Shown one piece after another: positions 351 to 20,128 of a stretch of 64,000 nt of DNA. Made by a program: the position numbers and the translations under genes. The stretch spans positions 15,021 through 79,020 of the forward strand of contig CANEGO010000005.1 in the NCBI GenBank assembly GCA_947427095.1. Reading direction: 5' to 3'. The notes under the pieces are model-generated. The model was given only the letters and a program-made list of their open reading frames with translations, made no database searches and was not told where the DNA came from. The stretch is from an uncultured Clostridium sp. (GTDB taxonomy: Bacteria > Bacillota_I > Bacilli_A > RF39 > UBA660). Numbering within the stretch: the stretch's first letter is position 1; every line of letters begins with the position of its first letter.

Positions 351-371
351 AAATCATCCTTTCCAAATATT

Positions 372-1267: not shown

Positions 1268-1573
1268 TTTTAATATCTCCATCCTTATTAGTTTTATATT
1301 AAATTCATAAATTGTGTTTTTTGTTTCATTTGACAACAAATATCTCGGCATCTAACATAATTTGTTTCTCCATTATTTAACATATTAAATTTTCTTTTTT
1401 TCTTCTATTTCATACATAGTATCACTTATTTGATAAAGATTATTGTTTTGTTATAAATATTTATTAAATGAAAAAACCTAATTTACATAAAGTAAAATTA
1501 GGTTTTGAATGACCTAGAGCTTCTAAAGTTTTCTAAGCACCACTCATTTATATTATACTTTTAATTTGTTATT

Positions 1574-2455: not shown

Positions 2456-2464
2456 TAGATAAAA

Positions 2465-2503
2465 AATGACCAGGGGCTTCTAAAGTTTCCCTGGCACTAC
2501 TCA
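2465..2503 (-). terminator. Hairpin GCCAGGG-loop-CCCUGG followed by U7 on the minus strand; terminator of the gatCAB operon and/or attenuator in the abi leader
   Basis: Minus strand reads GCCAGGGAAACUUUAGAAGCCCCUGGUCAUUUUUU. It lies downstream of the gatB stop and downstream of a TTGACA-17-TATATT promoter (2510-2538). Confidence 0.6.
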
Positions 2504-2567
2504 ATATGTAATATATCAATTTTTTATATTACTGTCAATAATTTATAATCTAAAATTTCAAAATCTG

Positions 2568-3992
2568 CTATTTATTATAATTAGCAAGTTCTTCTCTTAG
2601 CATTTCCATCGTTTTAGCTGGATTTGCTTTACCACGAGTCTTTTTCATAACCTGTCCAACAAAGAAATCTATCATTCTTGTTTTTTCAGGATTATATTCT
2701 CTTGCTTGTTCATCATTTTCTTTTAATACTTCCATAACAACATCATGAATAGCAGCGTCATCAGTTATTTGCATCATACCTTTTTCCTTAACGATAACGT
2801 TAGGTTCTTTACCTGATTCTATCATATCTTCAAATACTTCTTTAGCTTGTTTTGAGGATATTGTTTTGCTATCAACTAAATCAATTAACGCTTTTATCAT
2901 AGCTGGCTTAACAGGTACATCTTCTATTTTCATTTCATTAGTGTTTAAGTATCCCATAAGCATACCAGTAACCCAGTTACAAGCTTTTTTAGGATCAGCA
3001 CCTAACTCAACACATTCGTTAAAGAAGTCTGAGTTTTCTTTAACTTTAACTAATACTTCTGCATCATACTTAGAAAGTTCATATTCATCCATGTACTTTC
3101 TTACTCTATCTAATTGAAGCATAGGAATTGTTTTTCTAATTTCTTCTAACATTTCGTCAGTTACATCAGTTGGTGCAATGTTTGGTTCGATAAAGTATTT
3201 ATAATCAACTGCATCAGCTTTATCTCTCATCTTGAAAGTCTCTCCAGTTTCATCATCAAAACGTCTTGTTTCTTGTTCTACTTTACCACCATTTTGAAGA
3301 ATTTCAGTTTGTCTTTCAATTTCATAATCAATTGCACGACCAACGTTATAAAATGAGTTAATGTTTTTCATTTCAACTTTAGTACCTAACTTCTCAGAGT
3401 CTGAAATTGATACGTTAACGTCACATCTCATTTGACCTCTATCACTTCTAGCTTCTGATACACCACAGTAAACGATTAATGAACGATATGTCTCTAAGAA
3501 AGTTAAAGCTTCTTCTTTAGAATGTAAACAAGGCTCTGTTACTGTTTCTAAAAGTGGAACACATGCTCTGTTATAATCTATTAAAGAATATGTATCATAG
3601 TGATCAAGGGACGCTGTATCTTCTTCTAAGTGAGTATCATGAATATCTACTCTTTTAATCTCACCATCCACATCAATATCTACATAACCATTTATACCAA
3701 CTGGTTTAGTCATTTGTGTTATTTGGTATCCCTTTGGTAAATCTGGATAGTAATAGTTTTTTCTATCAAAGATTATTTCATCAGGAGTTGTACAATTCAT
3801 TGCCATAGATACCTTTAAAGCTCTTTTAACAGCTTCTTCATTTGCTACTGGTAAGATACCTGGAAAACCTAAATCTTGGTATGCTACGTGTGAGTTTGGC
3901 GCTTCTGTATATCCATTTATAGCAGGAGAAAATACTTTTGAGTTTGATTCTAATTCACAGTGAACTTCTAGTCCAATTGTTACTTTATACAT
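2568..3992 (-). CDS. gatB: Asp-tRNA(Asn)/Glu-tRNA(Gln) amidotransferase subunit B
   Basis: 474-aa ORF beginning MYKVTIGLEVHCEL, with a GatB-like C-terminal domain. Confidence 0.95.
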   Translation of the reverse strand: MYKVTIGLEVHCELESNSKVFSPAINGYTEAPNSHVAYQDLGFPGILPVANEEAVKRALKVSMAMNCTTPDEIIFDRKNYYYPDLPKGYQITQMTKPVGINGYVDIDVDGEIKRVDIHDTHLEEDTASLDHYDTYSLIDYNRACVPLLETVTEPCLHSKEEALTFLETYRSLIVYCGVSEARSDRGQMRCDVNVSISDSEKLGTKVEMKNINSFYNVGRAIDYEIERQTEILQNGGKVEQETRRFDDETGETFKMRDKADAVDYKYFIEPNIAPTDVTDEMLEEIRKTIPMLQLDRVRKYMDEYELSKYDAEVLVKVKENSDFFNECVELGADPKKACNWVTGMLMGYLNTNEMKIEDVPVKPAMIKALIDLVDSKTISSKQAKEVFEDMIESGKEPNVIVKEKGMMQITDDAAIHDVVMEVLKENDEQAREYNPEKTRMIDFFVGQVMKKTRGKANPAKTMEMLREELANYNK

Positions 3993-3993
3993 A

Positions 3994-5433
3994 TTACTTT
4001 TCCTCCCTTACGTTAAGTGGTACAAAACCAATTTTTTCTTCTAATGCTGCAGCCATGTTAATAACTGTGCTATCGGTTTTTATTGGACCGGATATGTTAA
4101 TTGCAACTGGCATACCTTCTACCATTCCAGATGGAATTGAAATTGAAGGAAAACCACCAAAGTTAGAAATTACCATGTTTTCTGCAAATAGCAAATAGTT
4201 ATCTGACATAACGTCACTAGTTTCTCCAAAATGTGGAGCGATAGTGTTAGTATTTGGCATAATGCATCCATCGTATTTTTCAAATAACTCATTCATTTTA
4301 TCAACGATTAATCTTCTAATTCTCCCGGCGTTCTTAAATAGCTTTTCTTGGTTTTCTTTTTGAAGAATAAATGACCCTAAAACAAATCTTCTTCTAATCA
4401 ATTCTGAGAAACCTTCGGTTCTAGTATTAATCATAACCTCAGCCGGAGTAGACCCACCTTTTCTATTTCCAAAAGGAATACCAGTAAGGTTCGAGTTATT
4501 ACTAGTTGCTTCAGCACAAGAAATTGCCATATAAGAAGGATATAAACTTCTTAAAATATTTTCATCTATACTTTCTTCTACAACTTCCATACCACATTCT
4601 TTAGCATATTCTATAATTTTCATAAAGTTATCATAAAACTCTGGAGTATTTTTTAACTCATCGTTTAACTCTTTAATGTAGAATAATTTCTTTCCTTTAA
4701 CGTCAGTAGTATAACTATCTACTAAGTTAATGTTAGATGAATCTATTGATGTCATATCTCTTTCATCTATTCCTTTAATTGCATCAATTACGTATGCAAC
4801 ATCTTTTACTTTTCTTGTAAAACATCCTACGTGGTCCATACTAGATGCAAAGGCAAATAATCCCCATCTAGATACTAAACCGTACGTTGGTTTATATCCT
4901 ACAACACCACAGTATCCAGCAGGTTTACGAATAGAGTCCCCTGTATCAGTACCTAGTGCGTAAGGTACGATTCCTTTTGCTACTGCTGCGGCAGATCCAG
5001 CAGAAGATCCAGCTGTTTGTCTTGTAATATCCCATGGGTTTCTTACAACACCAGTATGACCAGTAGTTCCTGTTCCACCCATTCCAAGTTCATCCATAAC
5101 GGTTTTACCCATCATAACAGCACCAGATTCTTTTAACTTTTCAATACAAGTTGCATCAAATACTGGAACATAATCAGCTAAAATGTTTGATGATGCGGTA
5201 GTTAAAACTCCCTTAGTTGATAAGTTATCTTTAATAGCACATGGAATACCAGATAATACGTTATCAGTTATTTCTTCTTCCTTAGCATCATCTAAGATAG
5301 TTACGAAGCTATTTAGCTCTTCTTGCGAAGCGTGAGCTCTTTCTAACGCTTCTTTAGTCAATTCTCTACTAGTTACCTTACCTTCTTTTAAGGCTGCATG
5401 TATTTCTTCTAAACTTTTATCTAAATAACTCAT
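3994..5433 (-). CDS. gatA: Asp-tRNA(Asn)/Glu-tRNA(Gln) amidotransferase subunit A (amidase family)
   Basis: 479-aa amidase-signature protein (GGSSGGSAAAVA, Ser-cisSer-Lys context) immediately between gatC and gatB. Confidence 0.95.
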   Translation of the reverse strand: MSYLDKSLEEIHAALKEGKVTSRELTKEALERAHASQEELNSFVTILDDAKEEEITDNVLSGIPCAIKDNLSTKGVLTTASSNILADYVPVFDATCIEKLKESGAVMMGKTVMDELGMGGTGTTGHTGVVRNPWDITRQTAGSSAGSAAAVAKGIVPYALGTDTGDSIRKPAGYCGVVGYKPTYGLVSRWGLFAFASSMDHVGCFTRKVKDVAYVIDAIKGIDERDMTSIDSSNINLVDSYTTDVKGKKLFYIKELNDELKNTPEFYDNFMKIIEYAKECGMEVVEESIDENILRSLYPSYMAISCAEATSNNSNLTGIPFGNRKGGSTPAEVMINTRTEGFSELIRRRFVLGSFILQKENQEKLFKNAGRIRRLIVDKMNELFEKYDGCIMPNTNTIAPHFGETSDVMSDNYLLFAENMVISNFGGFPSISIPSGMVEGMPVAINISGPIKTDSTVINMAAALEEKIGFVPLNVREEK

Positions 5434-5738
5434 TATTCTTCACCTCCAACTACTTTTGGAACTTTAACTTCATCATAGATTGTTTCATGTGCGTTTTTAA
5501 CTGCATCTTCAGTAGTTAAAGTACTTGTGGCTTCATCTTTTCTTAATTTAGCATCCTTATTTCTAAATGGAAAAGTCATAGGTTCTACCTTTTCTATTCC
5601 TTCTATTTTTCCAATTAAGTCCATTTGTTTTATTATTGTTTCAAACTCTTTTTCAAAAGTATCAAACTCTTCATCTTTCATCTTAAACATTAATTTTAAT
5701 GCATAATCTTGAATGTTTTCTCTTGTTATTTTTTGCAT
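5433..5738 (-). CDS. gatC: Asp-tRNA(Asn)/Glu-tRNA(Gln) amidotransferase subunit C
   Basis: 101-aa ORF overlapping the gatA start by 1 nt, in the canonical gatCAB order. Confidence 0.85.
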   Translation of the reverse strand: MQKITRENIQDYALKLMFKMKDEEFDTFEKEFETIIKQMDLIGKIEGIEKVEPMTFPFRNKDAKLRKDEATSTLTTEDAVKNAHETIYDEVKVPKVVGGEE

Positions 5739-5753
5739 CCTTTATCCTCCTTT

Positions 5754-6449
5754 TTAATTACTTTGATTTCTTTCTATAATTATATCACTAACCGTTAAAT
5801 TTATATTATTAAATACGTTACTAATAATAACTTCTGCAACATCATCTGGATTCATAAACGTATGTTGCTTTTCTAATGAAACATAATCCCTACTATTTTT
5901 ATAGAAGTTAGTATTTATTCCACCTGGATATACGCCTATTACTTTTACGCTGGTTCCTTTATAGGCTACTTTTAAGCTTTCTGTATAACCTTTTTCTCCC
6001 CATTTAGTTGCACAATAAACACTTTCACCTTTATTTCCTCTTAAGGCAGCAGAACTCATTACATTAGCTATTCTTATATTTTCTTCTTTTATTTTAAGTA
6101 AATTACCAGTAAGCATAATCATTCCATATAGACCTTTAAAACAAGTATCTATATCTTTTTTTACATAGTCCTTAGGTAATTTAAATGATGGTTCTCCGGC
6201 ATTATTAATAAGGCCAATTATATTCCCTTTTTTATTTATATCATTTACAGTATTAATAATAAATTCTTCATCTGATATATCACCATTATAAACATAAACT
6301 TTATCTATATAAGTATTTTTTAATTCATTCGAGGCCTCTTTATCTTGATCAATTACACATACATAATAACCTTGATTAATTAGCTTCTTAGTTAATGATA
6401 AACCTAATCCGTTAGCTCCACCACTAACTATTACTATATCTTTGTTCAT
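5754..6449 (-). CDS. SDR family NAD(P)-dependent oxidoreductase
   Basis: N-terminal VSGGANGLG glycine motif and catalytic Y-x3-K (YCATK). Confidence 0.8.
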   Translation of the reverse strand: MNKDIVIVSGGANGLGLSLTKKLINQGYYVCVIDQDKEASNELKNTYIDKVYVYNGDISDEEFIINTVNDINKKGNIIGLINNAGEPSFKLPKDYVKKDIDTCFKGLYGMIMLTGNLLKIKEENIRIANVMSSAALRGNKGESVYCATKWGEKGYTESLKVAYKGTSVKVIGVYPGGINTNFYKNSRDYVSLEKQHTFMNPDDVAEVIISNVFNNINLTVSDIIIERNQSN

Positions 6450-6451
6450 AG

Positions 6452-7285
6452 CTATACCTCTATTTCTTCCATGTCATCTGGAACAATTACGTTTCCATTA
6501 AAATATTTTTTCCCTTCAGCCTCATATAATTTTTTTCTATCATTACCATGATTTTCCTGCGTATGAAATAGAATTAAATTTTTTACGTTTAAATTATTCA
6601 TAATATCACAAGCATGTTTTACTGTTGAATGCTGTTTTTCATAAGCATGAAATATGTTTTCTTCTGATTCTAAGCACATTGCCTCATGCATAACATAATC
6701 AGAATCTTTTACAATATTATTTAATTCTGGATTCAAAGTAACATCTCCTAAAAAAGTTAACGTTTTATTATTTATTACACACTTAAACCCATACAATTTT
6801 ACCGATTTATTCCTAACATCAAAAAAAGTATATTTAATTCCATTTATTTCAACAACTTCATTGTTTTCTAAAATGTGAAAATTAACATTATCATGTATTA
6901 AATTTACTAATTTTTTCGGTAATACTTGATTTGATACCTCATTTATTGCAGTGTATACAACATCATTACAATATACATTAATATCTTTTTTTATTTCATC
7001 GTGCATTGCCATTACACCAATTTTTTTAAACATCCATATAAGACCTAAAATATGATCAGTATGAGCATGAGAAATAAATATATGATTTATATCACTTAGT
7101 GATATATTAAGGTTATTCAACCTTTTTCTTATTTCAATACTACCACCGGTATCAACTAAAAAATTACCACTATCATTTTTTATAAGAAAGCATGTATTAT
7201 ATAAGTCCATAGTACCACCAGCACCAGTACCCAACATAATAATTTTATTCATAATTTTCTCCTGTAGTTTCCTATTATTCACCAA
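6452..7285 (-). CDS. MBL-fold metallo-hydrolase
   Basis: HAHTDH metallo-beta-lactamase motif; tightly linked to its neighbours. Confidence 0.75.
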   Translation of the reverse strand: MVNNRKLQEKIMNKIIMLGTGAGGTMDLYNTCFLIKNDSGNFLVDTGGSIEIRKRLNNLNISLSDINHIFISHAHTDHILGLIWMFKKIGVMAMHDEIKKDINVYCNDVVYTAINEVSNQVLPKKLVNLIHDNVNFHILENNEVVEINGIKYTFFDVRNKSVKLYGFKCVINNKTLTFLGDVTLNPELNNIVKDSDYVMHEAMCLESEENIFHAYEKQHSTVKHACDIMNNLNVKNLILFHTQENHGNDRKKLYEAEGKKYFNGNVIVPDDMEEIEV

Positions 7286-7850
7286 TATATCCTAAAATTT
7301 CGTCAAACTGCTTTGAATATTCTTCATAATATTTTTCTAAATCCTCTTTGGCCTTTGGTAAAGATAATATATTATATTTTTCGTTTAATTTATATTTTAA
7401 TTGTGTTACTTGCTCTTTAAAGTCACTAGTTCTTTTAGCTAAAACACCAGCATATGTAAATACACCAACTGGATGAATAAATCTATAACAATCAGCATTA
7501 GCACATACTTCTGCTTCCGTACATGTAAAAGGTATTTTACCATGGTGGGCTTCTATACAATTTATTAACTTATCTTTCTCTTCTTTAGTTAAATCATATT
7601 CTTCAAGGAATTCTTTAGCAAAATCTGAAGCCATTTTAACGTGTTCTGAAGCTTTATTTAACTTGTGAGCTTCTCCTAGTTTTATATCCATCAAACAAAC
7701 TCCTATTGTTACAAAATCTTCATCAACATTATACTCTTTTGCTAACATCCTTCCTTTTACTAACGAAATATCAAGATGATTCTTTACTGGTGGCGTATTT
7801 TCACTTGCCATTTTTAATACATCTTCTAATAATTGTTCTTTATTTTTCAT
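7275..7850 (-). CDS. HD-domain phosphohydrolase-like protein
   Basis: H...HD-type motifs (EAHHGK). AGGAGG SD upstream of the start. Confidence 0.65.
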   Translation of the reverse strand: MKNKEQLLEDVLKMASENTPPVKNHLDISLVKGRMLAKEYNVDEDFVTIGVCLMDIKLGEAHKLNKASEHVKMASDFAKEFLEEYDLTKEEKDKLINCIEAHHGKIPFTCTEAEVCANADCYRFIHPVGVFTYAGVLAKRTSDFKEQVTQLKYKLNEKYNILSLPKAKEDLEKYYEEYSKQFDEILGYIGE

Positions 7851-7890
7851 ATAGTCCTCCTATTTATAAAAAACATAATTTACAATATCA

Positions 7891-8307
7891 CTATATTTTT
7901 TCTACTCTTATTGGTTGTGATCCTTCAGAACATAGTTTAGCAGCTTCAATAGCAAATTCTGATAAGCCTTCTGTTATCATTCCTATTGCAGCACCGTTTT
8001 GAAAACCAGTTGGACCAAAACACCATCCTCTATCGTACCATAAGTCAAAACCTACATCATTTCCTCCTAAAGGCATAATAATTATTTCACCAATTGATGG
8101 TAAGCAAGTTTCATTTTCATGTTCGTATTTAGGAAAATTTGAAAGTTTTGTCCATATTTCGCTTCCGGCCCATTTTGCATGCAATGCATCTTGTTCAAAT
8201 GGTAATACCTTAAGTAAGCTATCAATTACAGTTGGACATTTATCATCACGTAATTCAGCAACAACGCTTACTCCACTCTTAACTAATGTTATTTTTATTT
8301 TTGTCAT
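7891..8307 (-). CDS. Hypothetical protein, possibly DUF3830/cyclophilin-like (start moved to the internal ATG with a GAAGGAGA SD)
   Basis: The track ORF 7891..8367 has a better start at MTKIKITL: GAAGGAGA lies 8 nt upstream. Family assignment is from memory only. Confidence 0.45.
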   Translation of the reverse strand: MTKIKITLVKSGVSVVAELRDDKCPTVIDSLLKVLPFEQDALHAKWAGSEIWTKLSNFPKYEHENETCLPSIGEIIIMPLGGNDVGFDLWYDRGWCFGPTGFQNGAAIGMITEGLSEFAIEAAKLCSEGSQPIRVEKI

Positions 8308-8338
8308 AAAAATATCTCCTTCAATTTTATTTTTATAT

Positions 8339-9385
8339 CTAAAAAGGTAATTTACCTTGATATACATATATCCAAGAATAATTATTACTTATATTAGTAA
8401 GCTTATTATTTAATTTAACTTTAACTAATTTATCTTTTATTTGATTGCATTGTTTTCTTGAAATAATTTTTTCAATTATTCTATCTTCTCTTATTTCTAA
8501 AATTCCCATACCAGCCCAGAAATCTACCATCGAAGATTTATTAGATGCTAAGTGAAGCCATGCCTCTCCTCCAGCTCCTAATCCAAATGAACCAAGTAAA
8601 GGTATTAAGTTTTCTTTTTCAAAATATTCTTTACCTCGTAATTCATAATCCATATCTAAAAATGCTTCATTCAGAATCCTCGAGTTATAAATAAACTTAT
8701 TTTTTTCTTCTTCACTAATATTAGTTAAATCTTCTTTGCCATTCCACATTATATTAGTTTCAGCTCTTTTTAATCTAATTTTCTTTTCTTCTTCGTCAAG
8801 TAACGAAAATCTTTTTTCTACTTCTTTTTTATAATCTTTCATTTTAGATAATAGTTCTTCTTTATCATAAAAGTCTCTTGCTAATACAAGACTTAAATTA
8901 ATTGGATAATTATTATTTTCATTAATATATGAAATTATTTTTTTAAATGTATTATTATATTTATCCATCCCATCTTGAGGTGTATTATTCATGTAAGTTA
9001 ATGCTACTTCTTCAGATTCAAACTCAATGTTAACCCCATTATTATAAGTCATGGCTATTGGTAAAACGTATTCTATTAAATACTTTATTGTAAATATTTC
9101 TGCCCAATCAGGTTCAGGATACGTAGGGCTCCAAAAATGCTTATATCCACCAAAGCAGTAACAGAATAAGAAGGCTAAGTTATTATTTAAAATATTATCA
9201 ACTTTTTCTTCTGTATACTTTTTAGCTTCTTCAAATTGTGCTTTACGAGACCATTTTCTAGAAAATAATCTATTTAAAACCTTTTGCTTATAATTATTTC
9301 CTATTAACTCTCCTAATTTAATATTATTAAAATCTAAAAGTTCATTATTTACATAATCATTTACCATTTTTTCTAAGTCTTGCAT
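8339..9385 (-). CDS. Hypothetical protein (348 aa), no family recognised
   Basis: Long ORF with an AAGGTGA SD, inside the tightly packed minus-strand gene run. Confidence 0.6.
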   Translation of the reverse strand: MQDLEKMVNDYVNNELLDFNNIKLGELIGNNYKQKVLNRLFSRKWSRKAQFEEAKKYTEEKVDNILNNNLAFLFCYCFGGYKHFWSPTYPEPDWAEIFTIKYLIEYVLPIAMTYNNGVNIEFESEEVALTYMNNTPQDGMDKYNNTFKKIISYINENNNYPINLSLVLARDFYDKEELLSKMKDYKKEVEKRFSLLDEEEKKIRLKRAETNIMWNGKEDLTNISEEEKNKFIYNSRILNEAFLDMDYELRGKEYFEKENLIPLLGSFGLGAGGEAWLHLASNKSSMVDFWAGMGILEIREDRIIEKIISRKQCNQIKDKLVKVKLNNKLTNISNNYSWIYVYQGKLPF

Positions 9386-9394
9386 TTAATCACC

Positions 9395-9757
9395 TTATTT
9401 CATATCTTCTTCACTAATTAACTTGCATTGTTCTTTATACCAAGCTGGTGTACAAATCATAATTATTTTACAATTACCTTTCCAGTAGTAAACTTCTTCT
9501 TTATCAATTAATAGTAAGTCTCCTTGATTAAATTCAAGATACTCATCTTTTTTATTAAGAAGGCCACTACCTTCTAATATATAAGCTAATTCTTTACACT
9601 TAGTATTACTACAATAACCAGTTTCTGGGTATCTACCGTTTATAGTGTTTATAGCAAAGTCAATATCTTTATCATTTAATTCAACTGAGTATTCTAATAG
9701 TTTGCTAGTATCACTATTGGTAATGTTAACAGCTTTATCTTTTGTTACTATTTTAAT
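9395..9757 (-). CDS. Cupin-domain protein ORF with no canonical start (possible ATT start, or pseudogene); open frame runs 9395..9772
   Basis: 125 stop-free codons ending in TAA at 9395, encoding cupin-like motifs (GRYPETGY...LEGSG...YYWKG). There is no ATG/GTG/TTG in frame. An ATT lies 7 nt after AAGGA, and the frame opens inside the last codons of aspS. Confidence 0.3.
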   Translation of the reverse strand: MKIVTKDKAVNITNSDTSKLLEYSVELNDKDIDFAINTINGRYPETGYCSNTKCKELAYILEGSGLLNKKDEYLEFNQGDLLLIDKEEVYYWKGNCKIIMICTPAWYKEQCKLISEEDMK

Positions 9758-11527: not shown

Positions 11528-12406
11528 CTAATCATATTGGTTAGCTAATTGGTCGATTGTAGTTCCACCAGTCGCTTTCCAATCTATTTTTATATCATCA
11601 AATTCTTTACTTCTAAAATCATTTAATATTTTATAGTCTTCTTTTTCCATTTCAAAATTTAATGATTCCAAATTTTCCTTAATTCTATTTATATTTGTAC
11701 TTTTTACAAGTGGTATAATATGTTTTTCTTTAATTATCCAATTTAATATTATCTGATTTTGAGTTTTTTCATATTTTTTAGATAATTTTAATAAACAATT
11801 ATAATTTCTAAGTGCCGTTCTATTTCTTCTTAATGGTTGATAACATATAAATTGTATATTATTCTTTTTACAATAATCAATAATACCTATATCTTCATAT
11901 ATTTTACATTCTAAATTATATATACCTTCAAAAAAGTCTATTTTTGAAACTTTCTGTATATCCTTTAGTTGCTCCATACTAACATTACTTACACCTATAT
12001 ATCTTACTTTCTTATTTTCTACTAATTCATTTATTTTAGAATATACATCTTTCAATGGAATGTCTGAGAAAAATGGAGCATGGATTTGAATACTATCAAC
12101 ATAATCTATATTTAAAATACTTAAATATTCATTAAGTTGCTTTTCAACATCATCCTTAACTTTAATTGTAGGCTCCAAATTAACATTAATAAATAAATTG
12201 TTTCTTCCTACCTTATCAATAAACTCTTTCATTTTCCTAACAACATTGCCATCATTATATAACATATATAAAGATAAATAATTTTGTCCTTTTTCAAAAG
12301 AATATTTTAAAGTCTTTATTTCTTTAGAAAAATTTTCAAAATCAATGGTCCATGTTCCAATTCCTATTGGAAATATATCTTTTTTGTCTAACATTTTAGT
12401 TTTCAC
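11528..12406 (-). CDS. Aldo/keto reductase family protein
   Basis: 292-aa ORF with AKR-like features. Overlaps the upstream cupin gene by 11 nt. Confidence 0.65.
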   Translation of the reverse strand: MKTKMLDKKDIFPIGIGTWTIDFENFSKEIKTLKYSFEKGQNYLSLYMLYNDGNVVRKMKEFIDKVGRNNLFINVNLEPTIKVKDDVEKQLNEYLSILNIDYVDSIQIHAPFFSDIPLKDVYSKINELVENKKVRYIGVSNVSMEQLKDIQKVSKIDFFEGIYNLECKIYEDIGIIDYCKKNNIQFICYQPLRRNRTALRNYNCLLKLSKKYEKTQNQIILNWIIKEKHIIPLVKSTNINRIKENLESLNFEMEKEDYKILNDFRSKEFDDIKIDWKATGGTTIDQLANQYD

Positions 12407-12794
12407 TTTCTAACTTTTTTATTGGCAAGTCTCTTAAAGACTTTTGAATCTCACTTCCAGCTTGTGGTGCAAAAATATATAACTGCTCTAATTCTTCATC
12501 AGAATCATTTGCATGGGCATGCATTATTCCTTCTGGAATTAATACACAGTCTCCTTTTTTCAAAATATATTCTGTTCCATCTTCTAGTTTTAACTTTCCT
12601 TCTCCCCTTAGCATATAAATGACTTCTTCAAAGTCTCTTTTATGCATAGCAGTAGAATTCTTAGCTGGAATTGTAACAGTTCCTAAATCTAAGTTTTTAG
12701 CACCTGTCATTTTATCTAATAAGATACTAAGTGTTAGTCCATTTCCAAAATCTTTTATCTCTGTTTTTTCTTTTTCTATTAATTTAATATTCAT
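12396..12794 (-). CDS. Cupin-domain protein
   Basis: 132-aa ORF with a cupin_2-like His cluster (GIMHAHAND). Confidence 0.65.
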   Translation of the reverse strand: MNIKLIEKEKTEIKDFGNGLTLSILLDKMTGAKNLDLGTVTIPAKNSTAMHKRDFEEVIYMLRGEGKLKLEDGTEYILKKGDCVLIPEGIMHAHANDSDEELEQLYIFAPQAGSEIQKSLRDLPIKKLESEN

Positions 12795-12812
12795 CTTTAT
12801 TTTCCTTTCAAA

Positions 12813-13487
12813 TTAATAATTTTCTACGTCTTTAATTCCAAACTCTGGAATTATTACATCATCATCGCATTCTGTTATGAATTTTACTGCTTTAGCTACT
12901 TTTTCTGTTTCTAATCCAGTTGATGTATCATAATCATTTCCAGCTTTCTTAAATAAATCCGTTTGCATAAATCCTGGATAAAAACCAGTAACTTTTATAT
13001 TTTCTTTACTAAGTACTCTTTGTATCGAACGATTAAAGCCTCTCATAGCCCACTTAGAAGCATTGTATACTGCACTAAAATCATCATTATCAAAGCTTGA
13101 TTGTGAACATACATTTATAATCAATCCGCTCTTTTTATTTCTCATTATATGTAATACTGCCTTAGTCATATAAATAGGAGCTTTTGTATTGACATCAATA
13201 CAATCAGATATTTGTTCAAAAGTATTTTCTTCTAAATCTCCTGCTAACCATATACCAGCATTATTAATTAATATATCTACGTCGCCAATTTCTTTTACTA
13301 TACTTTCGATTCTATTATAATCCTTTAAATCGCAAACGTAATACTTACAATTTAATTCAGTAGCTAATGTTTTTAATTTTTCTTCATTCCTTGATATTAA
13401 TATTAAGTTCTCATCTTTTAATTCTCTTGCAATTGATTCTCCCAAACCATCACTTGCACCCGTTATAATTATGTTTTTCATATTCAT
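12813..13487 (-). CDS. SDR family oxidoreductase
   Basis: TGASDGLG and YNASK motifs. Confidence 0.8.
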   Translation of the reverse strand: MNMKNIIITGASDGLGESIARELKDENLILISRNEEKLKTLATELNCKYYVCDLKDYNRIESIVKEIGDVDILINNAGIWLAGDLEENTFEQISDCIDVNTKAPIYMTKAVLHIMRNKKSGLIINVCSQSSFDNDDFSAVYNASKWAMRGFNRSIQRVLSKENIKVTGFYPGFMQTDLFKKAGNDYDTSTGLETEKVAKAVKFITECDDDVIIPEFGIKDVENY

Positions 13488-14737
13488 TCCATCACTCTTT
13501 CTTTTATAAATTTCACTATTTCATCTTCAGCAAAATTACCATCTACAAATATTGGAACTTCATTACCGTAAATATCTATTCCTATTATGCTTAAATCACT
13601 TGTTCCAACCATGAAATCAACATGATTTTTACTTCTGTTTATTCCATTTTTCAATAACTCTCTATCACTCATAACATCACCATTAGGTATACATTTAGGA
13701 AATCCTCTACCTAGTGCCAAGTGACATGATGCATTTTCATCAATCAATATAGAGTTAAATATAATATTTGTTTTTGATATTGGAGAATTATAATCAACTA
13801 ATGCGCACTCTCCCAAAAAGTTCATACCTTCGAATTCTTCCATTAGCTCTAATAATTTATCTTCGTTATTACTAGCCCAAACTTTTTCTACTTTACCATT
13901 TTTAAAAGTTAGTTTAAACTTATCAATTATTTTGCCTTTAATAACTATTGGTCTGCTAGAACAAACTGTTCCATTCACTTTGTTTTTATCTGGTGTTGTA
14001 TAAACTTCTTCAGTTGGCATGTTAACGATTAAATCTTTTTTACCATCAAAACTTTTCTTAGCAGCTCCCCACCATATTACATCCTTTGGAAGACCTATTT
14101 CTAAATTAGTTCCTAACCCGTTTTTATATTTTAATTTAGAAAGTTTTAGTTCATTTAATAAATTTCTTCTTTCTGTGTTTGTTTTTATTTTCTCATTCCA
14201 AGCTTTAATCGGATCTTCTTTATCAATTAAGGTACACTTAAATATAATATTCCACAACTCATCTTCTGAATTAAGGTCTAATTTATCAGCCCACTCTTTT
14301 GTTGCAACTGCCGCTATACACCATGGATACTTATAAATACCTCTTGCTGCTACTGCATTTTCCTGCGTATCAACTTTAATTTTATTCATTAACGTCTTTT
14401 TTTCTAAAGGCACATTATCTAATGTTGATTTGCTATACGATGTTAAGGATAACAATGACCCGCCTTTATCATAAACCTCTTTTATTATAGTTCTATCAAA
14501 ATAAGGTTCTTTTTCTATTTCTTCTAAAGTAGAATTCATTAATATATCTCTTGTCTTTTCACCATCATATTCTACGTCGTATATTCCTGTTATTCCAAGT
14601 TTTTTTGCCTCTTCTTTTACGATATTAACAAATTCTTTTTGTTCTGTTAAATAAATAAGTAATAGTGGTTCCCCAACATTCATAGATAAACATCTGGTTA
14701 ATAAAAATCTAGCATACTTTCTTTTTTTATCATCCAT
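13484..14737 (-). CDS. M29-family aminopeptidase (PepS/AmpS-like); the track's N-terminal extension to 14815 is rejected
   Basis: Start placed at ATG 14737 (MDDKKRKYARFLL) with AAGGAGG 8 nt upstream. The extra upstream codons in the track ORF overlap the T-box terminator. Confidence 0.75.
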   Translation of the reverse strand: MDDKKRKYARFLLTRCLSMNVGEPLLLIYLTEQKEFVNIVKEEAKKLGITGIYDVEYDGEKTRDILMNSTLEEIEKEPYFDRTIIKEVYDKGGSLLSLTSYSKSTLDNVPLEKKTLMNKIKVDTQENAVAARGIYKYPWCIAAVATKEWADKLDLNSEDELWNIIFKCTLIDKEDPIKAWNEKIKTNTERRNLLNELKLSKLKYKNGLGTNLEIGLPKDVIWWGAAKKSFDGKKDLIVNMPTEEVYTTPDKNKVNGTVCSSRPIVIKGKIIDKFKLTFKNGKVEKVWASNNEDKLLELMEEFEGMNFLGECALVDYNSPISKTNIIFNSILIDENASCHLALGRGFPKCIPNGDVMSDRELLKNGINRSKNHVDFMVGTSDLSIIGIDIYGNEVPIFVDGNFAEDEIVKFIKERVME

Positions 14738-15008
14738 CACTAAAACCTCCTTATAAATTAAAAAACAGCAAATCATCCCCATAGGGACGAATGCTGTTTG
14801 TATCCGTGGTACCACCCAGTTTATTATTCTTAAAGAATAATCACTTTATGAAATAATAACGGTTTTTCTTCCGTCTTAGCCTACTTTATAAATTTCGGTA
14901 AGATACTCCGAGGTGTTCTTTCTTTAAATTATCTTACTGATATTCCACCACCATCAGCTCTCTTTTAAGAATCATTTAAATACTTTTCCTCATCAACGTC
15001 TTTAAATA
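14738..15008 (-). ncRNA. T-box riboswitch leader, specifier codon probably AAC (Asn), with intrinsic terminator at 14761-14801
   Basis: Read on the minus strand: a K-turn (UGAUGAGG...CCUCGGAGUA), a specifier loop GAAAGAACA closed by CCUC, a distal loop GGUGGUGGAAU, the T-box sequence ACUGGGUGGUACCACGG, and a terminator ACAAACAGCAUUCGUCCCUAUGGGGAUGAUUUGCUGUUUUU. Confidence 0.75.
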
Positions 15009-15015
15009 TACTTAA

Positions 15016-15043
15016 ATTATATCATATTTTTATTATTTTACAA
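15016..15043 (-). promoter_or_regulatory. Sigma-A promoter TTGTAA-16-TGaTATAAT driving the T-box leader
   Basis: Sequence read on the minus strand ~45 nt upstream of the Stem I K-turn. Confidence 0.55.
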
Positions 15044-15130
15044 CATTTTGTTGTTATTTATGCTTATTTTATAACGTTTTTAACAATATAGTTTATGCAA
15101 CATATAACGTTATTAAAACTAGTAAATTAC

Positions 15131-15160
15131 AAAAAGAAAAAAGTAGCTTAAAGCTACTTT
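15131..15160 (-). terminator. Rho-independent terminator after tRNA-Asn
   Basis: AAAGUAGCUUUAAGCUACUUUUUUCUUUUU read on the minus strand. Confidence 0.6.
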
Positions 15161-15170
15161 TAATTTCATA

Positions 15171-15246
15171 TGGCGCTTCAAGTAGGACTCGAACCTACGA
15201 CCTGCCGGTTAACAGCCGGATGCTCTACCGACTGAGCTATTGAAGC
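15171..15246 (-). tRNA. tRNA-Asn (anticodon GUU)
   Basis: 76-nt cloverleaf GCUUCAAUAGCUCAG...CUGUUAA...GGUUCGAGUCCUACUUGAAGCGCCA. A TTGACA-17-TATAAT promoter lies at 15281-15309. Confidence 0.9.
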
Positions 15247-15387
15247 ATTATGTCGGTTTCCTCTTTCAAGGTACAAACAAATTATATATTAATTAAAATA
15301 CTTTGTCAACAACTTTTTTCAAATATGTGTTTACATATTTCTATTATATGATAAAATACAAATCATATTAAAAAAGTTGGTGATATT

Positions 15388-18287: not shown

Positions 18288-18364
<77 letters not shown>

Positions 18365-18377
18365 ATAAATATATAAG

Positions 18378-18470
18378 TGGCGGAGGAAGAGGGATTCGAA
18401 CCCCCGCGCCGGTTGCCCGACCTCCCGGTTTTCAAGACCGGTCCCTTCAACCAGACTTGGGTATTCCTCC
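18378..18470 (-). tRNA. tRNA-Ser (anticodon UGA), type II
   Basis: 93-nt tRNA GGAGGAAUACCCAAGUCUGG...CUUGAAAACC... with a long variable arm and CCA end. Confidence 0.9.
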
Positions 18471-19171
18471 GAATACATTAACTATTATATGCAAAAACAA
18501 AATGTATATAACAATTAAACAGCACTAAAATTATAGCATTCCATGTTTTATTTGTCAACACATAATTTAAAAACCATAAAAACAGGCACCTATTTTCGTG
18601 CCTGTTTATTGTAATCTAATTTGTTGGTCACTTGGTATACAAAAAAACTTTAGCATCCTTTAAACCAACCACATGATTTTCACCACCTATTCGAAAATTA
18701 TATATTAATGTTTAAAATTATTGTAATCTTTACTAAAAATTGGTTATTAACATCTTAAAAACTTATTTTTTACCAACTAAATAAGCAACACCTCACTTTC
18801 TATTTTAATTGTACCTTTAAAATATTAAATTATTGTGTTATTTTTATTAAAGTTTATAAAAAAAGAAACTATCTTTAGTTTCCTTAGCTATTGTGGTTAA
18901 CATGTACCATACAATACTTTGTTGATGGTAGTACTTTTTCGTTATCATCATGTACGTTTTATGCTATATCATGAGTATTTGAAACACTCATATCCTTGTC
19001 AATTGATATTTCAACATCTATATAATATATATTACCAAGCATCCACAAGTAAAGCACCAAAATCTATCTTTTTGGCGGCGCTCCTTGTATACCAGTACAT
19101 CGCTAAGATGTATAAATCACATACTTTATCGTGCTTTAAAATATTAACGTAATACCTTATGCAAAGTCAAT

Positions 19172-19462
19172 TTACTTTTTAGCTTCTTTTATCTTTATAT
19201 AATCAATTTGAGGGTTATATAAATTATCTGCAAAATGTAATATTTTTGGAGCTGTTTCTTGTATTTTTGTTACACCACCATTTATTATCATCACAATTTC
19301 ATGGTCATCTATTTGTTTAGTAACAATTCCTCTGGCATTATCTGGAAATAGACTTTTATTTGGAGCAATTAAACCAATATTATTTGGTAACATTTTGCTA
19401 ATAAAATTTGGTAACATACCATTATGTATATGACCAGCTAAAATCAAATTTATTAATTTCAT
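19172..19462 (-). pseudogene. Truncated metallophosphoesterase: C-terminal third only (GHIHNG motif near its N-terminus)
   Basis: 96-aa ORF carrying only the last calcineurin-like motifs. An in-frame stop lies 14 codons upstream, and there is no room for the N-terminal 2/3 before tRNA-Leu. Confidence 0.4.
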
Positions 19463-19608
19463 ATCATTTACAGAATTTAATACTTTTTCATTTAAAATGT
19501 TCTAAAACTTTCATGCGTACCACCTTCAAAAACGTTTTTGTTTTATAGTATAATACATTTTAAAGAAAATAAATAAAAAACTAACCTTTAAGGTTAGTTA
19601 TTTTTAAG

Positions 19609-19697
19609 TGGTGCCCGAGGCCGGACTTGAACCGGCACGAGGTATGAATCTCGCAGGATTTTAAGTCCTGTGCGTCTACCAATTCCGCCACTCGGGC
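19609..19697 (-). tRNA. tRNA-Leu (anticodon UAA), type II
   Basis: GCCCGAGUGGCGGAAUUGGUAGACGC...CUUAAAA...CGGGCACCA. Terminator at 19571-19600. Confidence 0.9.
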
Positions 19698-19699
19698 AA

Positions 19700-19774
19700 T
19701 GGTGTCCTGTATGCGACTCGAACGCATGACCCTTTGATTAAAAGTCAAATGCTCTACCTACTGAGCTAACAGGA
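19700..19774 (-). tRNA. tRNA-Lys (anticodon UUU)
   Basis: GUCCUGUUAGCUCAGUAGGUAGAGC...CUUUUAA...ACAGGACACCA. Confidence 0.9.
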
Positions 19775-19791
19775 CGTACTACTAAATAAAT

Positions 19792-19866
19792 TTGGTTGCC
19801 TCGGCAAGATTCGAACTTGCGCATGTCAGAGTCAAAGTCTGATGCCTTACCACTTGGCGACGAGGC
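19792..19866 (-). tRNA. tRNA-Gln (anticodon UUG)
   Basis: UGCCUCGUCGCCAAGUGGUAAGGC...CUUUGAC...CGAGGCAACCA. Confidence 0.9.
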
Positions 19867-19874
19867 AATCTAAA

Positions 19875-19959
19875 GTGGTGGGGAGAGGTGGATTCGAACC
19901 ACCGAACCCGAAGGAACAGATTTACAGTCTGCCGCGTTTAGCCACTTCGCTATCTCCCC
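19875..19959 (-). tRNA. tRNA-Tyr (anticodon GUA), type II
   Basis: GGGGAGAUAGCGAAGUGGCUAAACGC...CUGUAAA...CUCUCCCCACCA. Confidence 0.9.
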
Positions 19960-19964
19960 GTTTA

Positions 19965-20040
<76 letters not shown>

Positions 20041-20048
20041 AATAATAA

Positions 20049-20125
20049 ATGGTGGACGCTATAGGACTCGAACCTATGACCCCCTGCTTGTAAGGCAGGT
20101 GCTCTAACCAACTGAGCTAAGCATC
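20049..20125 (-). tRNA. tRNA-Val (anticodon UAC)
   Basis: GGAUGCUUAGCUCAGUUGGUUAGAGC...CUUACAA...UAGCGUCCACCA. First gene of the six-tRNA cluster. Confidence 0.9.
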
Positions 20126-20128
20126 CAA

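What the first reader, a model, noticed from the sequence alone, without database searches (positions are those of the whole stretch)
14738..15309. Asn-specifier T-box leader, preceded by a tRNA-Asn gene, heads the operon carrying aspS and gatCAB
The minus strand shows a complete T-box leader, which a sigma-A promoter would place in front of the aminopeptidase-aspS-gatCAB run (promoter, K-turn, specifier loop, T-box sequence and terminator spelled out in the feature list). By analogy with glyQS (GAAGGCA closed by CUUC), the specifier loop GAAAGAACA closed by CCUC puts AAC, the Asn codon, at the specifier position. A tRNA-Asn(GUU) gene with its own perfect TTGACA-17-TATAAT promoter and terminator sits immediately upstream. 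An Asn-responsive T-box on aspS makes sense only if AspRS is non-discriminating and Asn-tRNA(Asn) is made by GatCAB, and both genes are in the run below it. The first gene under T-box control is an M29 aminopeptidase, which would link tRNA-Asn charging to peptide scavenging.
Basis: partly seen in the sequence, partly recalled or inferred. Interest (0 to 1): 0.8.

Follow-up and report, generated by a model that had tools for sequence, protein, structure and literature searches.

The report
Asparagine-tRNA-sensing T-box on aspS–gatCAB operon
A standard tRNA-sensing RNA switch (T-box) that reads uncharged asparagine tRNA sits in front of a 14-gene operon carrying the enzymes that make Asn-tRNA by the indirect route; this type of control is already known from Clostridium acetobutylicum, but here the tRNA and the GatB enzyme have unusual features.

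Summary
Rfam RF00230 matches window 15005..14780 (minus strand) full length at 148.6 bits (threshold 93). tRNA-Asn(GUU), its 12/12 promoter and its terminator lie just upstream. The specifier is AAC (14917..14915). The covariance-model alignment places it there. A Stem I base helix with compensatory changes fixes the loop boundary. AAC plus a purine is invariant in all 30+ related aspS-linked T-boxes examined.

The controlled operon has 14 genes, not 5: M29, three cargo genes, aspS, six cargo genes, then gatCAB. Close relatives carry, behind the same T-box, asnS-aspS-gatCAB, M29-asnS-gatCAB or aspS-gatCAB. The regulon is therefore a module that supplies Asn-tRNA(Asn).

An Asn T-box on aspS-gatCAB was shown experimentally in C. 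acetobutylicum (Saad 2012, 2013), including the overlapping GAA/AAC codons that are also present here. The core finding is therefore a new member of a known kind.

One thing is unexplained. The tRNA-Asn has G1-C72 instead of the U1-A72 pair that bacterial GatCAB requires. The GatB 3-10 turn that reads this pair is remodelled across the clade (KMEE to R-S/T-D-K/R).

In sister lineages, tRNA-Asn genes lie downstream of the T-box terminator.

The parts
15281..15309 (-). sigma-A-type promoter of the tRNA-Asn gene (TTGACA-17-TATAAT)
   Evidence: 12/12 consensus match; the same promoter is found in L097
15171..15246 (-). tRNA-Asn(GUU) gene with encoded CCA; G1-C72, G73, D-loop without nucleotide 20A
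   Evidence: ARAGORN; Rfam tRNA 73.5 bits; sequence read; 100% identical in L097
15139..15161 (-). intrinsic terminator of the tRNA-Asn unit
   Evidence: 10-bp stem plus U-run; -10.0 kcal/mol, z -3.9
15016..15043 (-). promoter of the T-box operon (TTGTAA-16-TATAAT with extended -10 TG)
   Evidence: conserved in L095 and L097
14780..15005 (-). T-box leader (Stem I with GA/K-turn motif, specifier loop, AG bulge and distal loop, Stems II, IIA/B and III, antiterminator)
   Evidence: RF00230, 148.6 bits, full length; 18 of 30 predicted pairs show compensatory changes in 10 relatives
14915..14917 (-). specifier codon AAC (Asn); the purine A at 14914 follows it; the overlapping GAA (Glu) lies at 14918..14916
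   Evidence: CM alignment; loop boundary fixed by the covarying helix 14991..14988 / 14913..14910; AAC plus purine invariant in relatives
14811..14814 (-). T-box bulge 5'-UGGU-3' that pairs with the tRNA 3' end NCCA (U opposite G73 gives a G.U wobble)
   Evidence: wobble at this position is accepted and common in Trp T-boxes according to TBDB (PMC7778990)
14760..14799 (-). intrinsic terminator that competes with the antiterminator
   Evidence: -20.4 kcal/mol, z -5.9, followed by a U-run; detected by the terminator scan
13484..14737 (-). M29 aminopeptidase, first gene of the operon
   Evidence: PF02073, 362.6 bits; the T-box-M29 pairing recurs in L081-L091, L095 and L097
11528..13487 (-). cargo block 1: SDR (13487..12813), cupin (12794..12396), aldo/keto reductase (12406..11528)
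   Evidence: Pfam; absent from the sister species L082-L091
9769..11511 (-). aspS, bacterial-type AspRS with GAD domain (580 aa)
   Evidence: NF001750, 729.7 bits; PF00152, PF01336 and PF02938
5754..9757 (-). cargo block 2: cupin-like ORF with ATT in place of ATG (9757..9395), unknown 348-aa protein (9385..8339), DUF3830 (8367..7891), HD-like (7850..7275), MBL-fold hydrolase (7285..6452), SDR (6449..5754)
   Evidence: gene content differs in every close relative examined
2568..5738 (-). gatC (5738..5433), gatA (5433..3994), gatB (3992..2568)
   Evidence: blastx and tblastn against relatives; GatB matches PDB 2df4_B at 1.1e-132; Pfam families GatC, Amidase, GatB_N and GatB_Yqey on orthologues

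Best explanation
This is a canonical transcription-attenuating T-box riboswitch specific for tRNA-Asn.

Transcription starts at about 15009 from an extended -10 promoter. Stem I presents the codon AAC to the GUU anticodon of tRNA-Asn. If the bound tRNA is uncharged, its 3' GCCA end pairs with UGGU in the antiterminator bulge (a G.U wobble at the discriminator). The antiterminator forms, and RNA polymerase reads through into a 14-gene, roughly 12-kb operon. If the tRNA is charged, the -20 kcal/mol terminator (14799..14763 plus U-run) forms instead.

The conserved payload is an Asn-tRNA(Asn) supply module. AspRS is inferred to be non-discriminating and to attach Asp to tRNA-Asn. GatCAB is inferred to amidate that Asp to Asn on the tRNA. 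An M29 aminopeptidase comes first in the operon (proposed role: releasing amino acids from peptides). Nine strain-variable cargo enzymes are carried along.

Shown: the RNA element, its specifier, the tRNA match, the terminator/antiterminator alternative, the gene content and the comparative conservation. Inferred: the non-discriminating activity of AspRS, the use of this tRNA-Asn by GatCAB, co-transcription of all 14 genes and the physiological role of M29.
For: - RF00230 full-length match at 148.6 bits.
- Terminator at -20.4 kcal/mol, z -5.9; the antiterminator alone is weak (-5.8), as expected for a tRNA-stabilised structure.
- The Stem I base helix covaries (GC5/AU4/GU1; AU7/UA3; GC9/AU1). 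This places AAC at positions 2-4 from the 3' end of the loop, which is the TBDB rule.
- AAC plus a purine is invariant in about 30 aspS-linked T-boxes of Bacilli and Clostridia MAGs, while the nucleotide before it varies (G, U, A or C).
- tRNA-Asn(GUU) with G73 lies 166 nt upstream.
- There is no terminator-like site on the minus strand between the T-box terminator and the end of gatB, and all gaps are 40 nt or less.
- Behind orthologous T-boxes with the same specifier loop: asnS-aspS-gatCAB (L101-L104, GatB 93% identical, 11 contigs), M29-asnS-gatCAB (L097, collinear with the window at 85-96% nt identity apart from the swapped segment), orf-asnS-aspS-gatCAB (L027), aspS-gatCAB (L001, L005; L008 seen as far as gatC, L009 only aspS before the contig ends) and tRNA-Asn arrays followed by gatCAB-aspS (L002, L003, L007).
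- The loss of aspS from the operon in L097 implies that another aspS exists in that lineage. The operon copy would then be a specialised second enzyme, as in C. acetobutylicum, which has three aspS genes.
- Experimental precedent: a tRNA-Asn-dependent T-box controls aspS-gatCAB in C. acetobutylicum (Saad 2012 and 2013, as cited in PMC4052509, PMC4574755 and PMC4206432).
Against: - The tRNA-Asn has G1-C72. In N. meningitidis this change lowers GatCAB amidation 102-fold (PMC1635274). In a survey of 547 genera, every genus that depends on GatCAB for Asn had U1-A72 (PMC4206432).
- Mollicutes and Erysipelothrix, which also lack U1-A72 in tRNA-Asn, use AsnRS.
- The rest of the genome could not be searched for asnS, asnA, asnB or a second aspS. 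The 64-kb window holds no class IIb paralogue.
- No sequence signature could be applied to establish that this AspRS is non-discriminating.
- gatCAB is presumably also needed for Gln-tRNA(Gln); the tRNA-Gln here has U1-A72. Control by tRNA-Asn alone is therefore odd unless the terminator is leaky or internal promoters exist.
- The discriminator contact is a wobble pair rather than a Watson-Crick pair.
- No transcript data are available.
Confidence: 0.75

Rival explanations
1. The leader is a two-codon T-box like the C. acetobutylicum NT-box. The loop A-G-A-A-C-A offers both GAA (tRNA-Glu) and AAC (tRNA-Asn) by a one-base shift. The operon would then respond to the charging of both tRNAs, which would couple GatCAB (it consumes Gln and releases Glu) to Glu status. 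This extends the best explanation rather than excluding it.
For: GAAC is present at 14918..14915 and is conserved in the window's own clade (window, L001, L005, L008, L009, L082-L091, L095, L097, L101). The bulge UGGU forms a Watson-Crick pair with A73 of the clade's tRNA-Glu but only a wobble pair with G73 of tRNA-Asn. In L002, L003 and L007 a tRNA-Glu gene lies immediately upstream of the T-box. Dual binding was shown experimentally for the Clostridium element (Saad 2013, via PMC4052509).
Against: The G is not conserved outside this clade. L002 and L003 read UAAC, L007 reads AAAC, and the Clostridia versions have A, C or U at that position. Many relatives have UGGC, which cannot pair with A73. 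The downstream genes in relatives include asnS, not gltX. A loop that happens to contain GAA is expected fairly often by chance, because the S-turn motif is itself GAA-rich.
Confidence: 0.2
2. The AspRS is the organism's ordinary discriminating enzyme, and GatCAB serves only Gln-tRNA(Gln). Asn-tRNA(Asn) is made by an AsnRS encoded elsewhere in the genome. The Asn T-box on aspS-gatCAB would then be an inherited arrangement that merely co-regulates translation genes.
For: By the published rule, G1-C72 in tRNA-Asn predicts a poor GatCAB substrate. Related lineages without U1-A72 (Mycoplasma, Erysipelothrix, Acholeplasma) have asnS. asnS exists in this clade, inside the same operon, in L097, L101-L104 and L027. 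tRNA-Gln has the canonical U1-A72.
Against: AAC is strictly conserved on this AspRS clade across distant Firmicutes. In L002, L003 and L007 the tRNA-Asn genes themselves are embedded between the T-box and gatCAB-aspS. L097 dispensed with the operon aspS while keeping the T-box, so the operon copy is not the sole AspRS of the lineage. The GatB element that discriminates the first base pair is altered across the whole clade. It is hard to see why an essential Asp or Gln function would be gated by Asn charging.
Confidence: 0.2
3. The specifier is read in another frame (ACA for Thr, or GAA for Glu only) or is GAC (Asp). The leader would then not be Asn-specific.
For: All three frames of GAACA would pass a discriminator test with UGGU if wobble is allowed; tRNA-Thr in the window has A73.
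Against: There is no GAC in the loop. The CM alignment and the covarying helix put AAC in the canonical frame. The base after the codon must be a purine; it is A after AAC but C after ACA. AAC is the only triplet that is invariant across relatives. asnS lies downstream in relatives.
Confidence: 0.03
4. The leader is a decaying remnant, and the operon is driven constitutively or from internal promoters.
For: Weak promoter-like hexamers occur inside the operon, but no more often than in shuffled sequence.
Against: The CM match is full length and high scoring, the terminator is intact, and helices keep pairing through compensatory substitutions in many lineages.
Confidence: 0.02

Closest known systems
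C. acetobutylicum 'NT-box': tRNA-Asn-dependent T-box controlling the aspS-gatCAB transamidation operon (Saad et al. 2012, J Biol Chem 287:20382; Saad et al. 2013, PNAS 110:12756)
   Same: A T-box with an AAC specifier overlapped by GAA. It lies upstream of an operon that encodes a bacterial-type AspRS and GatCAB. The host is a low-GC Firmicute without GlnRS. The AspRS is probably one of several paralogues.
   Different: The host is an uncultured gut 'Bacilli' lineage (28% GC). M29 aminopeptidase is the first gene. Nine strain-variable cargo genes are inserted. The tRNA-Asn has G1-C72, whereas C. acetobutylicum is listed with U1-A72. GatB has a remodelled 3-10 turn. Close relatives swap or add asnS in the operon. 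I could not read the two primary papers (not held) or fetch the Clostridium sequence, so the comparison rests on how other papers cite them.
Canonical T-box leaders (B. subtilis tyrS and glyQS; Rfam RF00230)
   Same: The full architecture, and the inferred mechanism of tRNA-dependent antitermination.
   Different: Nothing structural. The specifier loop has 9 nt on its 3' side, and the discriminator contact is a G.U wobble.
Asn-specific T-boxes on asnS in a few Firmicutes (Wels et al. 2008, PMC2494555)
   Same: Asn specifier. Relatives of this window (L097, L101, L027) carry asnS behind the orthologous T-box.
   Different: In the window the regulated synthetase is AspRS, not AsnRS. Wels et al. 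reported no T-boxes upstream of amidotransferase genes.
Bacteria that keep both routes to Asn-tRNA(Asn) (S. aureus, T. thermophilus, D. radiodurans, B. bacteriovorus; PMC4206432)
   Same: AsnRS coexists with ND-AspRS and GatCAB; the tRNA-dependent route acts as an Asn biosynthesis pathway.
   Different: Here both routes can sit in one T-box operon (L101, L027), and the composition varies between near-identical genomes.
Archaeal GatCAB, which accepts G1-C72 tRNA-Asn because it lacks the bacterial 3-10 turn (Nakamura et al. 2010, PMC2811023)
   Same: The tRNA-Asn has G1-C72. Discrimination against tRNA-Asp could rest on the D-loop alone.
   Different: The window's GatB is bacterial, and the turn has the same length. 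Its conserved Met and acidic residues are replaced (KMEE to RSDR) rather than deleted. The functional consequence is untested.

Membership tests
T-box leader (RF00230) | Covariance-model score above the curated gathering threshold over the full model | tested here: met
   148.6 bits against 93, positions 1-219 of 219, E 2.2e-33
T-box leader (RF00230) | Stem I with a GA/K-turn motif at the base, an S-turn specifier loop (AGUA ... GAA), an AG bulge (AGAGA) and a distal loop (GGUGNRA) | tested here: met
   UGAUGA/GGAG, AAAAGUA/GAAAGAACA, AGAGAG and GGUGGAA all align to the consensus with high posterior probability. The MFE fold gives the GAGG/CCUC base helix.
T-box leader (RF00230) | A codon at positions 2-4 from the 3' end of the specifier loop, followed by a purine, that matches the anticodon of a host tRNA | tested here: met
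   AAC-A before CCUC. tRNA-Asn(GUU) is encoded 166 nt upstream. The helix boundary is supported by compensatory changes.
T-box leader (RF00230) | A conserved T-box sequence whose UGGN pairs with the tRNA NCCA end | tested here: met
   UGGGUGGUACCACG is present. N = U opposite G73 gives a G.U wobble, which is accepted by TBDB and is found in 46% of Trp T-boxes.
T-box leader (RF00230) | Mutually exclusive antiterminator and intrinsic terminator | tested here: met
   Terminator at -20.4 kcal/mol, z -5.9, with a U-run. Its 5' arm overlaps the 3' arm of the antiterminator.
T-box leader (RF00230) | Readthrough induced by uncharged cognate tRNA | not testable with these tools
   Needs in vitro transcription or reporter assays.
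T-box-controlled transamidation operon (C. acetobutylicum NT-box type) | aspS and gatC, gatA, gatB in one transcription unit behind an Asn T-box | tested here: met
   All four genes lie on the minus strand downstream of the leader, with no intervening terminator-like site. Co-transcription itself is inferred.
T-box-controlled transamidation operon (C. acetobutylicum NT-box type) | Overlapping GAA and AAC codons in the specifier loop | tested here: met
   GAAC at 14918..14915. It is conserved only within the window's own clade.
T-box-controlled transamidation operon (C. acetobutylicum NT-box type) | The AspRS is non-discriminating (it charges tRNA-Asn) | not testable with these tools
   No reliable sequence signature was available. 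Support is indirect: the asnS/aspS interchange and the AAC conservation.
Bacterial tRNA-dependent Asn synthesis (ND-AspRS plus GatCAB) | tRNA-Asn carries the U1-A72 pair required by bacterial GatCAB | tested here: not met
   G1-C72 in the window and in all 20 or so tRNA-Asn genes of the clade. The rule comes from PMC1635274 and PMC2811023.
Bacterial tRNA-dependent Asn synthesis (ND-AspRS plus GatCAB) | tRNA-Asn lacks the D-loop anti-determinant (nucleotide 20A) found in tRNA-Asp | tested here: met
   The D-loop is AGUCGGUA, 8 nt, without 20A.
Bacterial tRNA-dependent Asn synthesis (ND-AspRS plus GatCAB) | Canonical GatB 3-10 turn (K-M-E-E in S. aureus) that reads U1-A72 | tested here: not met
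   The window has R-S-D-R at the same length. The Met position is hydrophobic in 145 of 150 diverse GatB representatives; it is Ser or Ala only in the window's three nearest clusters, plus two unrelated exceptions (Arg, Pro). All 120 closest homologues (listed after E-value ranking) have R-(S/T/A)-D-x or D-T-K-K.
Bacterial tRNA-dependent Asn synthesis (ND-AspRS plus GatCAB) | No AsnRS in the genome, or no AsnA/AsnB, so that the route is needed | tested here: inconclusive
   No class IIb paralogue in the 64-kb window. Close relatives do carry asnS.

The most novel reading that the evidence does not exclude
In this uncultured gut Bacilli clade, the bacterial 'U1-A72 rule' for tRNA-dependent asparagine synthesis may be broken. 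On this reading, GatCAB has a remodelled first-base-pair-reading 3-10 turn (KMEE to R-S/T-D-K/R, fixed in the clade and essentially absent elsewhere). It amidates Asp on a G1-C72 tRNA-Asn and still serves a U1-A72 tRNA-Gln, so it would discriminate through the D-loop alone, as archaeal GatCAB does. The Asn T-box operon would then be a plastic Asn-tRNA supply cassette. Its synthetase slot toggles between asnS, aspS or both among near-identical genomes. In sister lineages it also contains the genes for its own tRNA-Asn ligand, which would give a feed-forward loop.
Probability: 0.35. Interest if true: 0.7.

Novelty: new member of a known kind. Interest (0 to 1): 0.45.

Why it matters
As a T-box the element is ordinary. 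As an Asn T-box on aspS-gatCAB it repeats a system already dissected in C. acetobutylicum. Its main value is to show that this regulatory logic extends well beyond clostridia, into abundant uncultured human-gut Bacilli.

The comparative set found here also gives a natural experiment. The same leader heads asnS, aspS or both. This supports the functional assignment of the AspRS and shows that the direct and indirect Asn-tRNA routes are exchanged within a species-level group.

The conflict between a G1-C72 tRNA-Asn and the accepted GatCAB identity rule, together with a clade-specific change in exactly the GatB element that reads that pair, is a concrete hypothesis about how tRNA identity evolves. 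It can be tested cheaply.

T-box-gated tRNA-Asn genes, if real, would be a previously undescribed kind of T-box regulon member. I found no report of this in the held literature.

Tried and rejected
1. An exact-sequence look-up of the window's AspRS found nothing on record.
2. The primary papers (Saad 2012, Saad 2013, Vitreschak 2008, Chuawong and Hendrickson 2006) are not held. The comparison with the Clostridium NT-box therefore rests on citing papers. No anticodon-domain signature could be applied to call the AspRS non-discriminating.
4. A regex-based extraction of specifiers misfired, because one anchor was too loose. I discarded it in favour of the alignments.
5. No tRNA-Asn genes were found in the Clostridia-type loci. 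The proposed covariation (canonical GatB turn with U1-A72, remodelled turn with G1-C72) is therefore shown directly on one side only. The other side comes from the literature.
6. Rfam found no T-box in L004, L006, L015, L033 or L067, so not every member of the AspRS clade is T-box controlled, or the contigs are cut.
7. Literature searches for T-box-controlled tRNA genes and for T-box plus M29 aminopeptidase returned nothing relevant.
8. I considered an integron-like cassette mechanism for the cargo genes and rejected it. The gaps between cargo genes are only 2-40 nt, which leaves no room for attachment sites.
9. A GAC (Asp) specifier is rejected, because no GAC occurs in the loop.
Full report
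**1. What is there**

On the minus strand of the window, Rfam's T-box model (RF00230) matches 15005..14780 over all 219 positions. The score is 148.6 bits against a gathering score of 93 (E 2.2e-33). ARAGORN and Rfam both call a tRNA-Asn(GUU) at 15246..15171.

The consensus scan finds:
- a perfect TTGACA-17-TATAAT promoter at 15309..15281 for the tRNA;
- a 10-bp terminator at 15161..15139;
- a TTGTAA-16-(TG)TATAAT promoter at 15043..15016 for the leader.

The leader's terminator hairpin (14799..14763 plus a U-run) folds at -20.4 kcal/mol (z -5.9). The antiterminator alone is weak at -5.8 kcal/mol, as expected for a structure that needs the tRNA. An RBS and the ATG of an M29 aminopeptidase gene (14737) follow directly.

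**2. Specifier**

The covariance-model alignment reads GAA-ag-AAC-A-CCUC. An RNAalifold run on ten orthologous leaders predicts the Stem I base helix GAGG/CCUC. Three of its four pairs carry compensatory changes (GC5/AU4/GU1; AU7/UA3; GC9/AU1). The window has GAGG/CCUC, for example, where L097 and L095 have AAGG/CCUU. This fixes the 3' end of the loop. AAC (14917..14915) then occupies positions 2-4 from the loop end and is followed by the purine A, which is the rule TBDB uses (PMC7778990).

In alignments of 8 and then 30 T-boxes lying upstream of relatives of this AspRS (Bacilli and Clostridia MAGs, AspRS 53-88% identical), AAC plus a purine is invariant. The preceding base is G, U, A or C. 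There is no GAC. The bulge reads UGGU, and the tRNA-Asn discriminator is G73. The acceptor contact is therefore a G.U wobble, which is known to be tolerated.

**3. The operon is larger than described**

Downstream on the minus strand the genes are:
- M29 aminopeptidase;
- SDR, cupin and aldo/keto reductase (first cargo block);
- aspS (bacterial type with a GAD domain; NF001750, 729.7 bits);
- a cupin-like ORF, an unknown 348-aa protein, DUF3830, an HD-like protein, an MBL-fold hydrolase and an SDR (second cargo block);
- gatC, gatA and gatB.

Gaps are 40 nt or less, or the genes overlap. No minus-strand terminator-like site lies between 14773 and 2568. A single transcript of about 12 kb is the simplest reading, but this is an inference.

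**4. Relatives**

The nearest AspRS sequences belong to uncultured gut 'Bacilli' MAGs, and the window has 28% GC. Behind orthologous Asn T-boxes I found five operon states.
- (A) asnS-aspS-gatCAB. L101-L104 have GatB 93% identical to the window's and are seen on 11 contigs from several samples; the T-box scores 133 bits and the asnS is 87% identical to that of L097. The state also occurs in the Erysipelotrichaceae MAG L027, where asnS scores 608 bits.
- (B) M29-asnS-gatCAB in L097. The asnS scores 630.6 bits against a cut-off of 414. The locus is collinear with the window at 85-87% nt identity upstream and 96% across gatCAB. Only the segment between the end of M29 and gatC differs. The tRNA-Asn and the specifier loop are identical to the window's. 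A remnant of the cupin gene lies in the asnS-gatC spacer.
- (C) M29-(cargo)-aspS-(cargo)-gatCAB. This is the state of the window, L095, L096 and L098, each with a different cargo. The sister species L082-L091 has no cargo.
- (D) aspS directly behind the T-box: aspS-gatCAB in L001 and L005 (gatB cut off in L005). L008 is seen only as far as gatC and L009 only as far as aspS before their contigs end.
- (E) tRNA-Ile, tRNA-Glu, T-box, tRNA-Asn x2-4, gatCAB-aspS in L002, L003 and L007.

The common denominator is the supply of Asn-tRNA(Asn). State B shows that the operon's aspS is dispensable in the lineage, so another aspS must exist there (an inference). The operon copy would then be a specialised enzyme, as in C. 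acetobutylicum, which has three aspS genes and two gatCAB sets (PMC4206432 supplement). M29 as the first gene recurs in at least three lineages (window, L082-type, L081), but it is absent from L001 and L101.

**5. Mechanism**

The most likely mechanism is classical T-box antitermination by uncharged tRNA-Asn. It switches on a non-discriminating AspRS and GatCAB, which build Asn on the tRNA. An aminopeptidase is co-induced and may feed amino acids from peptides. PMC4206432 discusses why peptide-derived Asn is unreliable, because of deamidation.

Shown: the RNA anatomy, the specifier, the tRNA match, the gene content and the conservation. Inferred: the non-discriminating specificity of AspRS, the amidation of this tRNA by GatCAB, co-transcription of the 14 genes and the role of M29.

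**6. What does not fit**

Bacterial GatCAB recognises U1-A72. A G1-C72 tRNA-Asn is amidated 102-fold less well by the N. meningitidis enzyme (PMC1635274). All surveyed genera that depend on GatCAB for Asn have U1-A72.

The window's tRNA-Asn has G1-C72, and so does every tRNA-Asn found in this clade, including those embedded in the gatCAB-aspS operons. The tRNA-Gln keeps U1-A72. Mycoplasma, Erysipelothrix and Acholeplasma also lack U1-A72 in tRNA-Asn, and they have asnS.

The 3-10 turn of GatB (S. aureus K183-M184-E185-E186) is the element shown to create the preference for U1-A72; deleting it abolishes the preference (PMC2811023). The window's GatB has R-S-D-R there, at the same length. The picture across homologues is as follows.
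- All ten clade members seen by tblastn have S or T at the Met position, followed by basic residues. All eight Clostridia-type GatBs keep K-M-(Q/E)-E.
- Among 150 diverse cluster representatives the Met column is M, L or I in 145. It is S or A only in the three clusters nearest to the window.
- All 120 closest homologues carry the variant.

[quoted passage not shown] The asnS strain L097 has the same GatB and the same tRNA.

A second oddity concerns gatCAB. It is presumably essential for Gln-tRNA(Gln), yet it sits behind an Asn-gated terminator.

**7. The Glu codon**

GAAC offers GAA one base upstream of AAC, as in the experimentally dual-specific Clostridium NT-box (Saad 2013, via PMC4052509 and PMC4574755). 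UGGU would form a Watson-Crick pair with A73 of the clade's tRNA-Glu. However, the G is not conserved outside the window's own clade, and many relatives have UGGC. Dual sensing is possible here, but it is not required by the data.

**8. Comparison and novelty**

The element meets every sequence and structure criterion for T-box membership. The operon matches the C. acetobutylicum transamidation operon in its logic. It fails the U1-A72 criterion and the canonical GatB-turn criterion of the bacterial indirect pathway.

The finding as stated is a new member of a known kind. The features around it deserve follow-up: the G1-C72/GatB pairing, the asnS/aspS interchange, the T-box-embedded tRNA-Asn arrays and the hypervariable cargo.

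I could not read the two Saad papers or fetch the Clostridium sequence, and I could not search the rest of the genome for asnS.

Noticed in passing
L003:5890-6775; L002:6137-6777; L007:1-690: In three sister MAGs the T-box lies inside a tRNA operon. A single promoter is followed by tRNA-Ile and tRNA-Glu, then 22 nt, the Asn T-box and its terminator, then about 19 nt, 2-4 tandem tRNA-Asn(GUU) genes and gatCAB-aspS. The genes for the riboswitch's own ligand therefore appear to be under its control. I found no report of T-box-gated tRNA genes in the held literature.
   Followed up: partly
window 2568-3992 (GatB residues 182-185); window 15171-15246: The GatB 3-10 turn that reads the first tRNA base pair is R-S-D-R instead of K-M-E-E, and this holds across the whole clade. 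It co-occurs with a G1-C72 tRNA-Asn. The variant is essentially absent from 150 diverse GatB representatives.
   Followed up: partly
window 5754-9757 and 11528-13487; L095, L096, L098, L100: The slots between M29 and aspS and between aspS and gatC are hotspots for small-enzyme cargo that differs in every close relative: SDRs, cupins, AKR, NUDIX, MBL/YunG, HD-like, DUF3830, S66 peptidase, Ppx-GppA, Dabb, AF_0155. The genes are packed with gaps of 2-40 nt, and the flanks stay 91-96% identical at the DNA level.
   Followed up: partly
L097:6756-8126; L101:456-1826; L027:8586-9974: asnS occupies the synthetase slot of the orthologous Asn T-box operon in close relatives. It replaces aspS in L097 and precedes it in L101-L104 and L027. 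The direct and indirect Asn-tRNA routes are therefore exchanged or combined within one operon family.
   Followed up: yes
window 9395-9757 (-): A 120-codon cupin-like ORF directly after aspS has ATT where its orthologue in L096 has ATG. It either initiates at ATT or is a gene with an inactivated start codon. ORF lists that require ATG, GTG or TTG do not show it.
   Followed up: partly
window 18288-20126 (-): There is a cluster of eight tRNA genes (Val, Thr, Tyr, Gln, Lys, Leu, then Ser, Met) upstream of the locus. The order is conserved in L082-L091 and L097. The tRNA-Gln has the canonical U1-A72 pair.
   Followed up: partly
window 1-2560; L095:11609-14359; L096:11563-13337; L097:11662-13190: The region just downstream of gatB is also strain-variable: KilA-N and ORF6N domain genes appear in relatives, and different ORFs in the window. 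It starts with a near-consensus promoter at 2538..2510.
   Followed up: no
L082:8977-9660; L095:1921-2604: In sister genomes a 227-aa ORF without any Pfam match separates the tRNA-Asn gene from the T-box promoter. It is absent from the window and from L097, where the two units are 166 nt apart.
   Followed up: no
L097:8127-8254: The asnS-gatC spacer of L097 holds a short ORF whose N-terminus resembles that of the window's cupin (12794..12396). This suggests that the asnS state arose by replacement in a cargo-bearing ancestor.
   Followed up: partly
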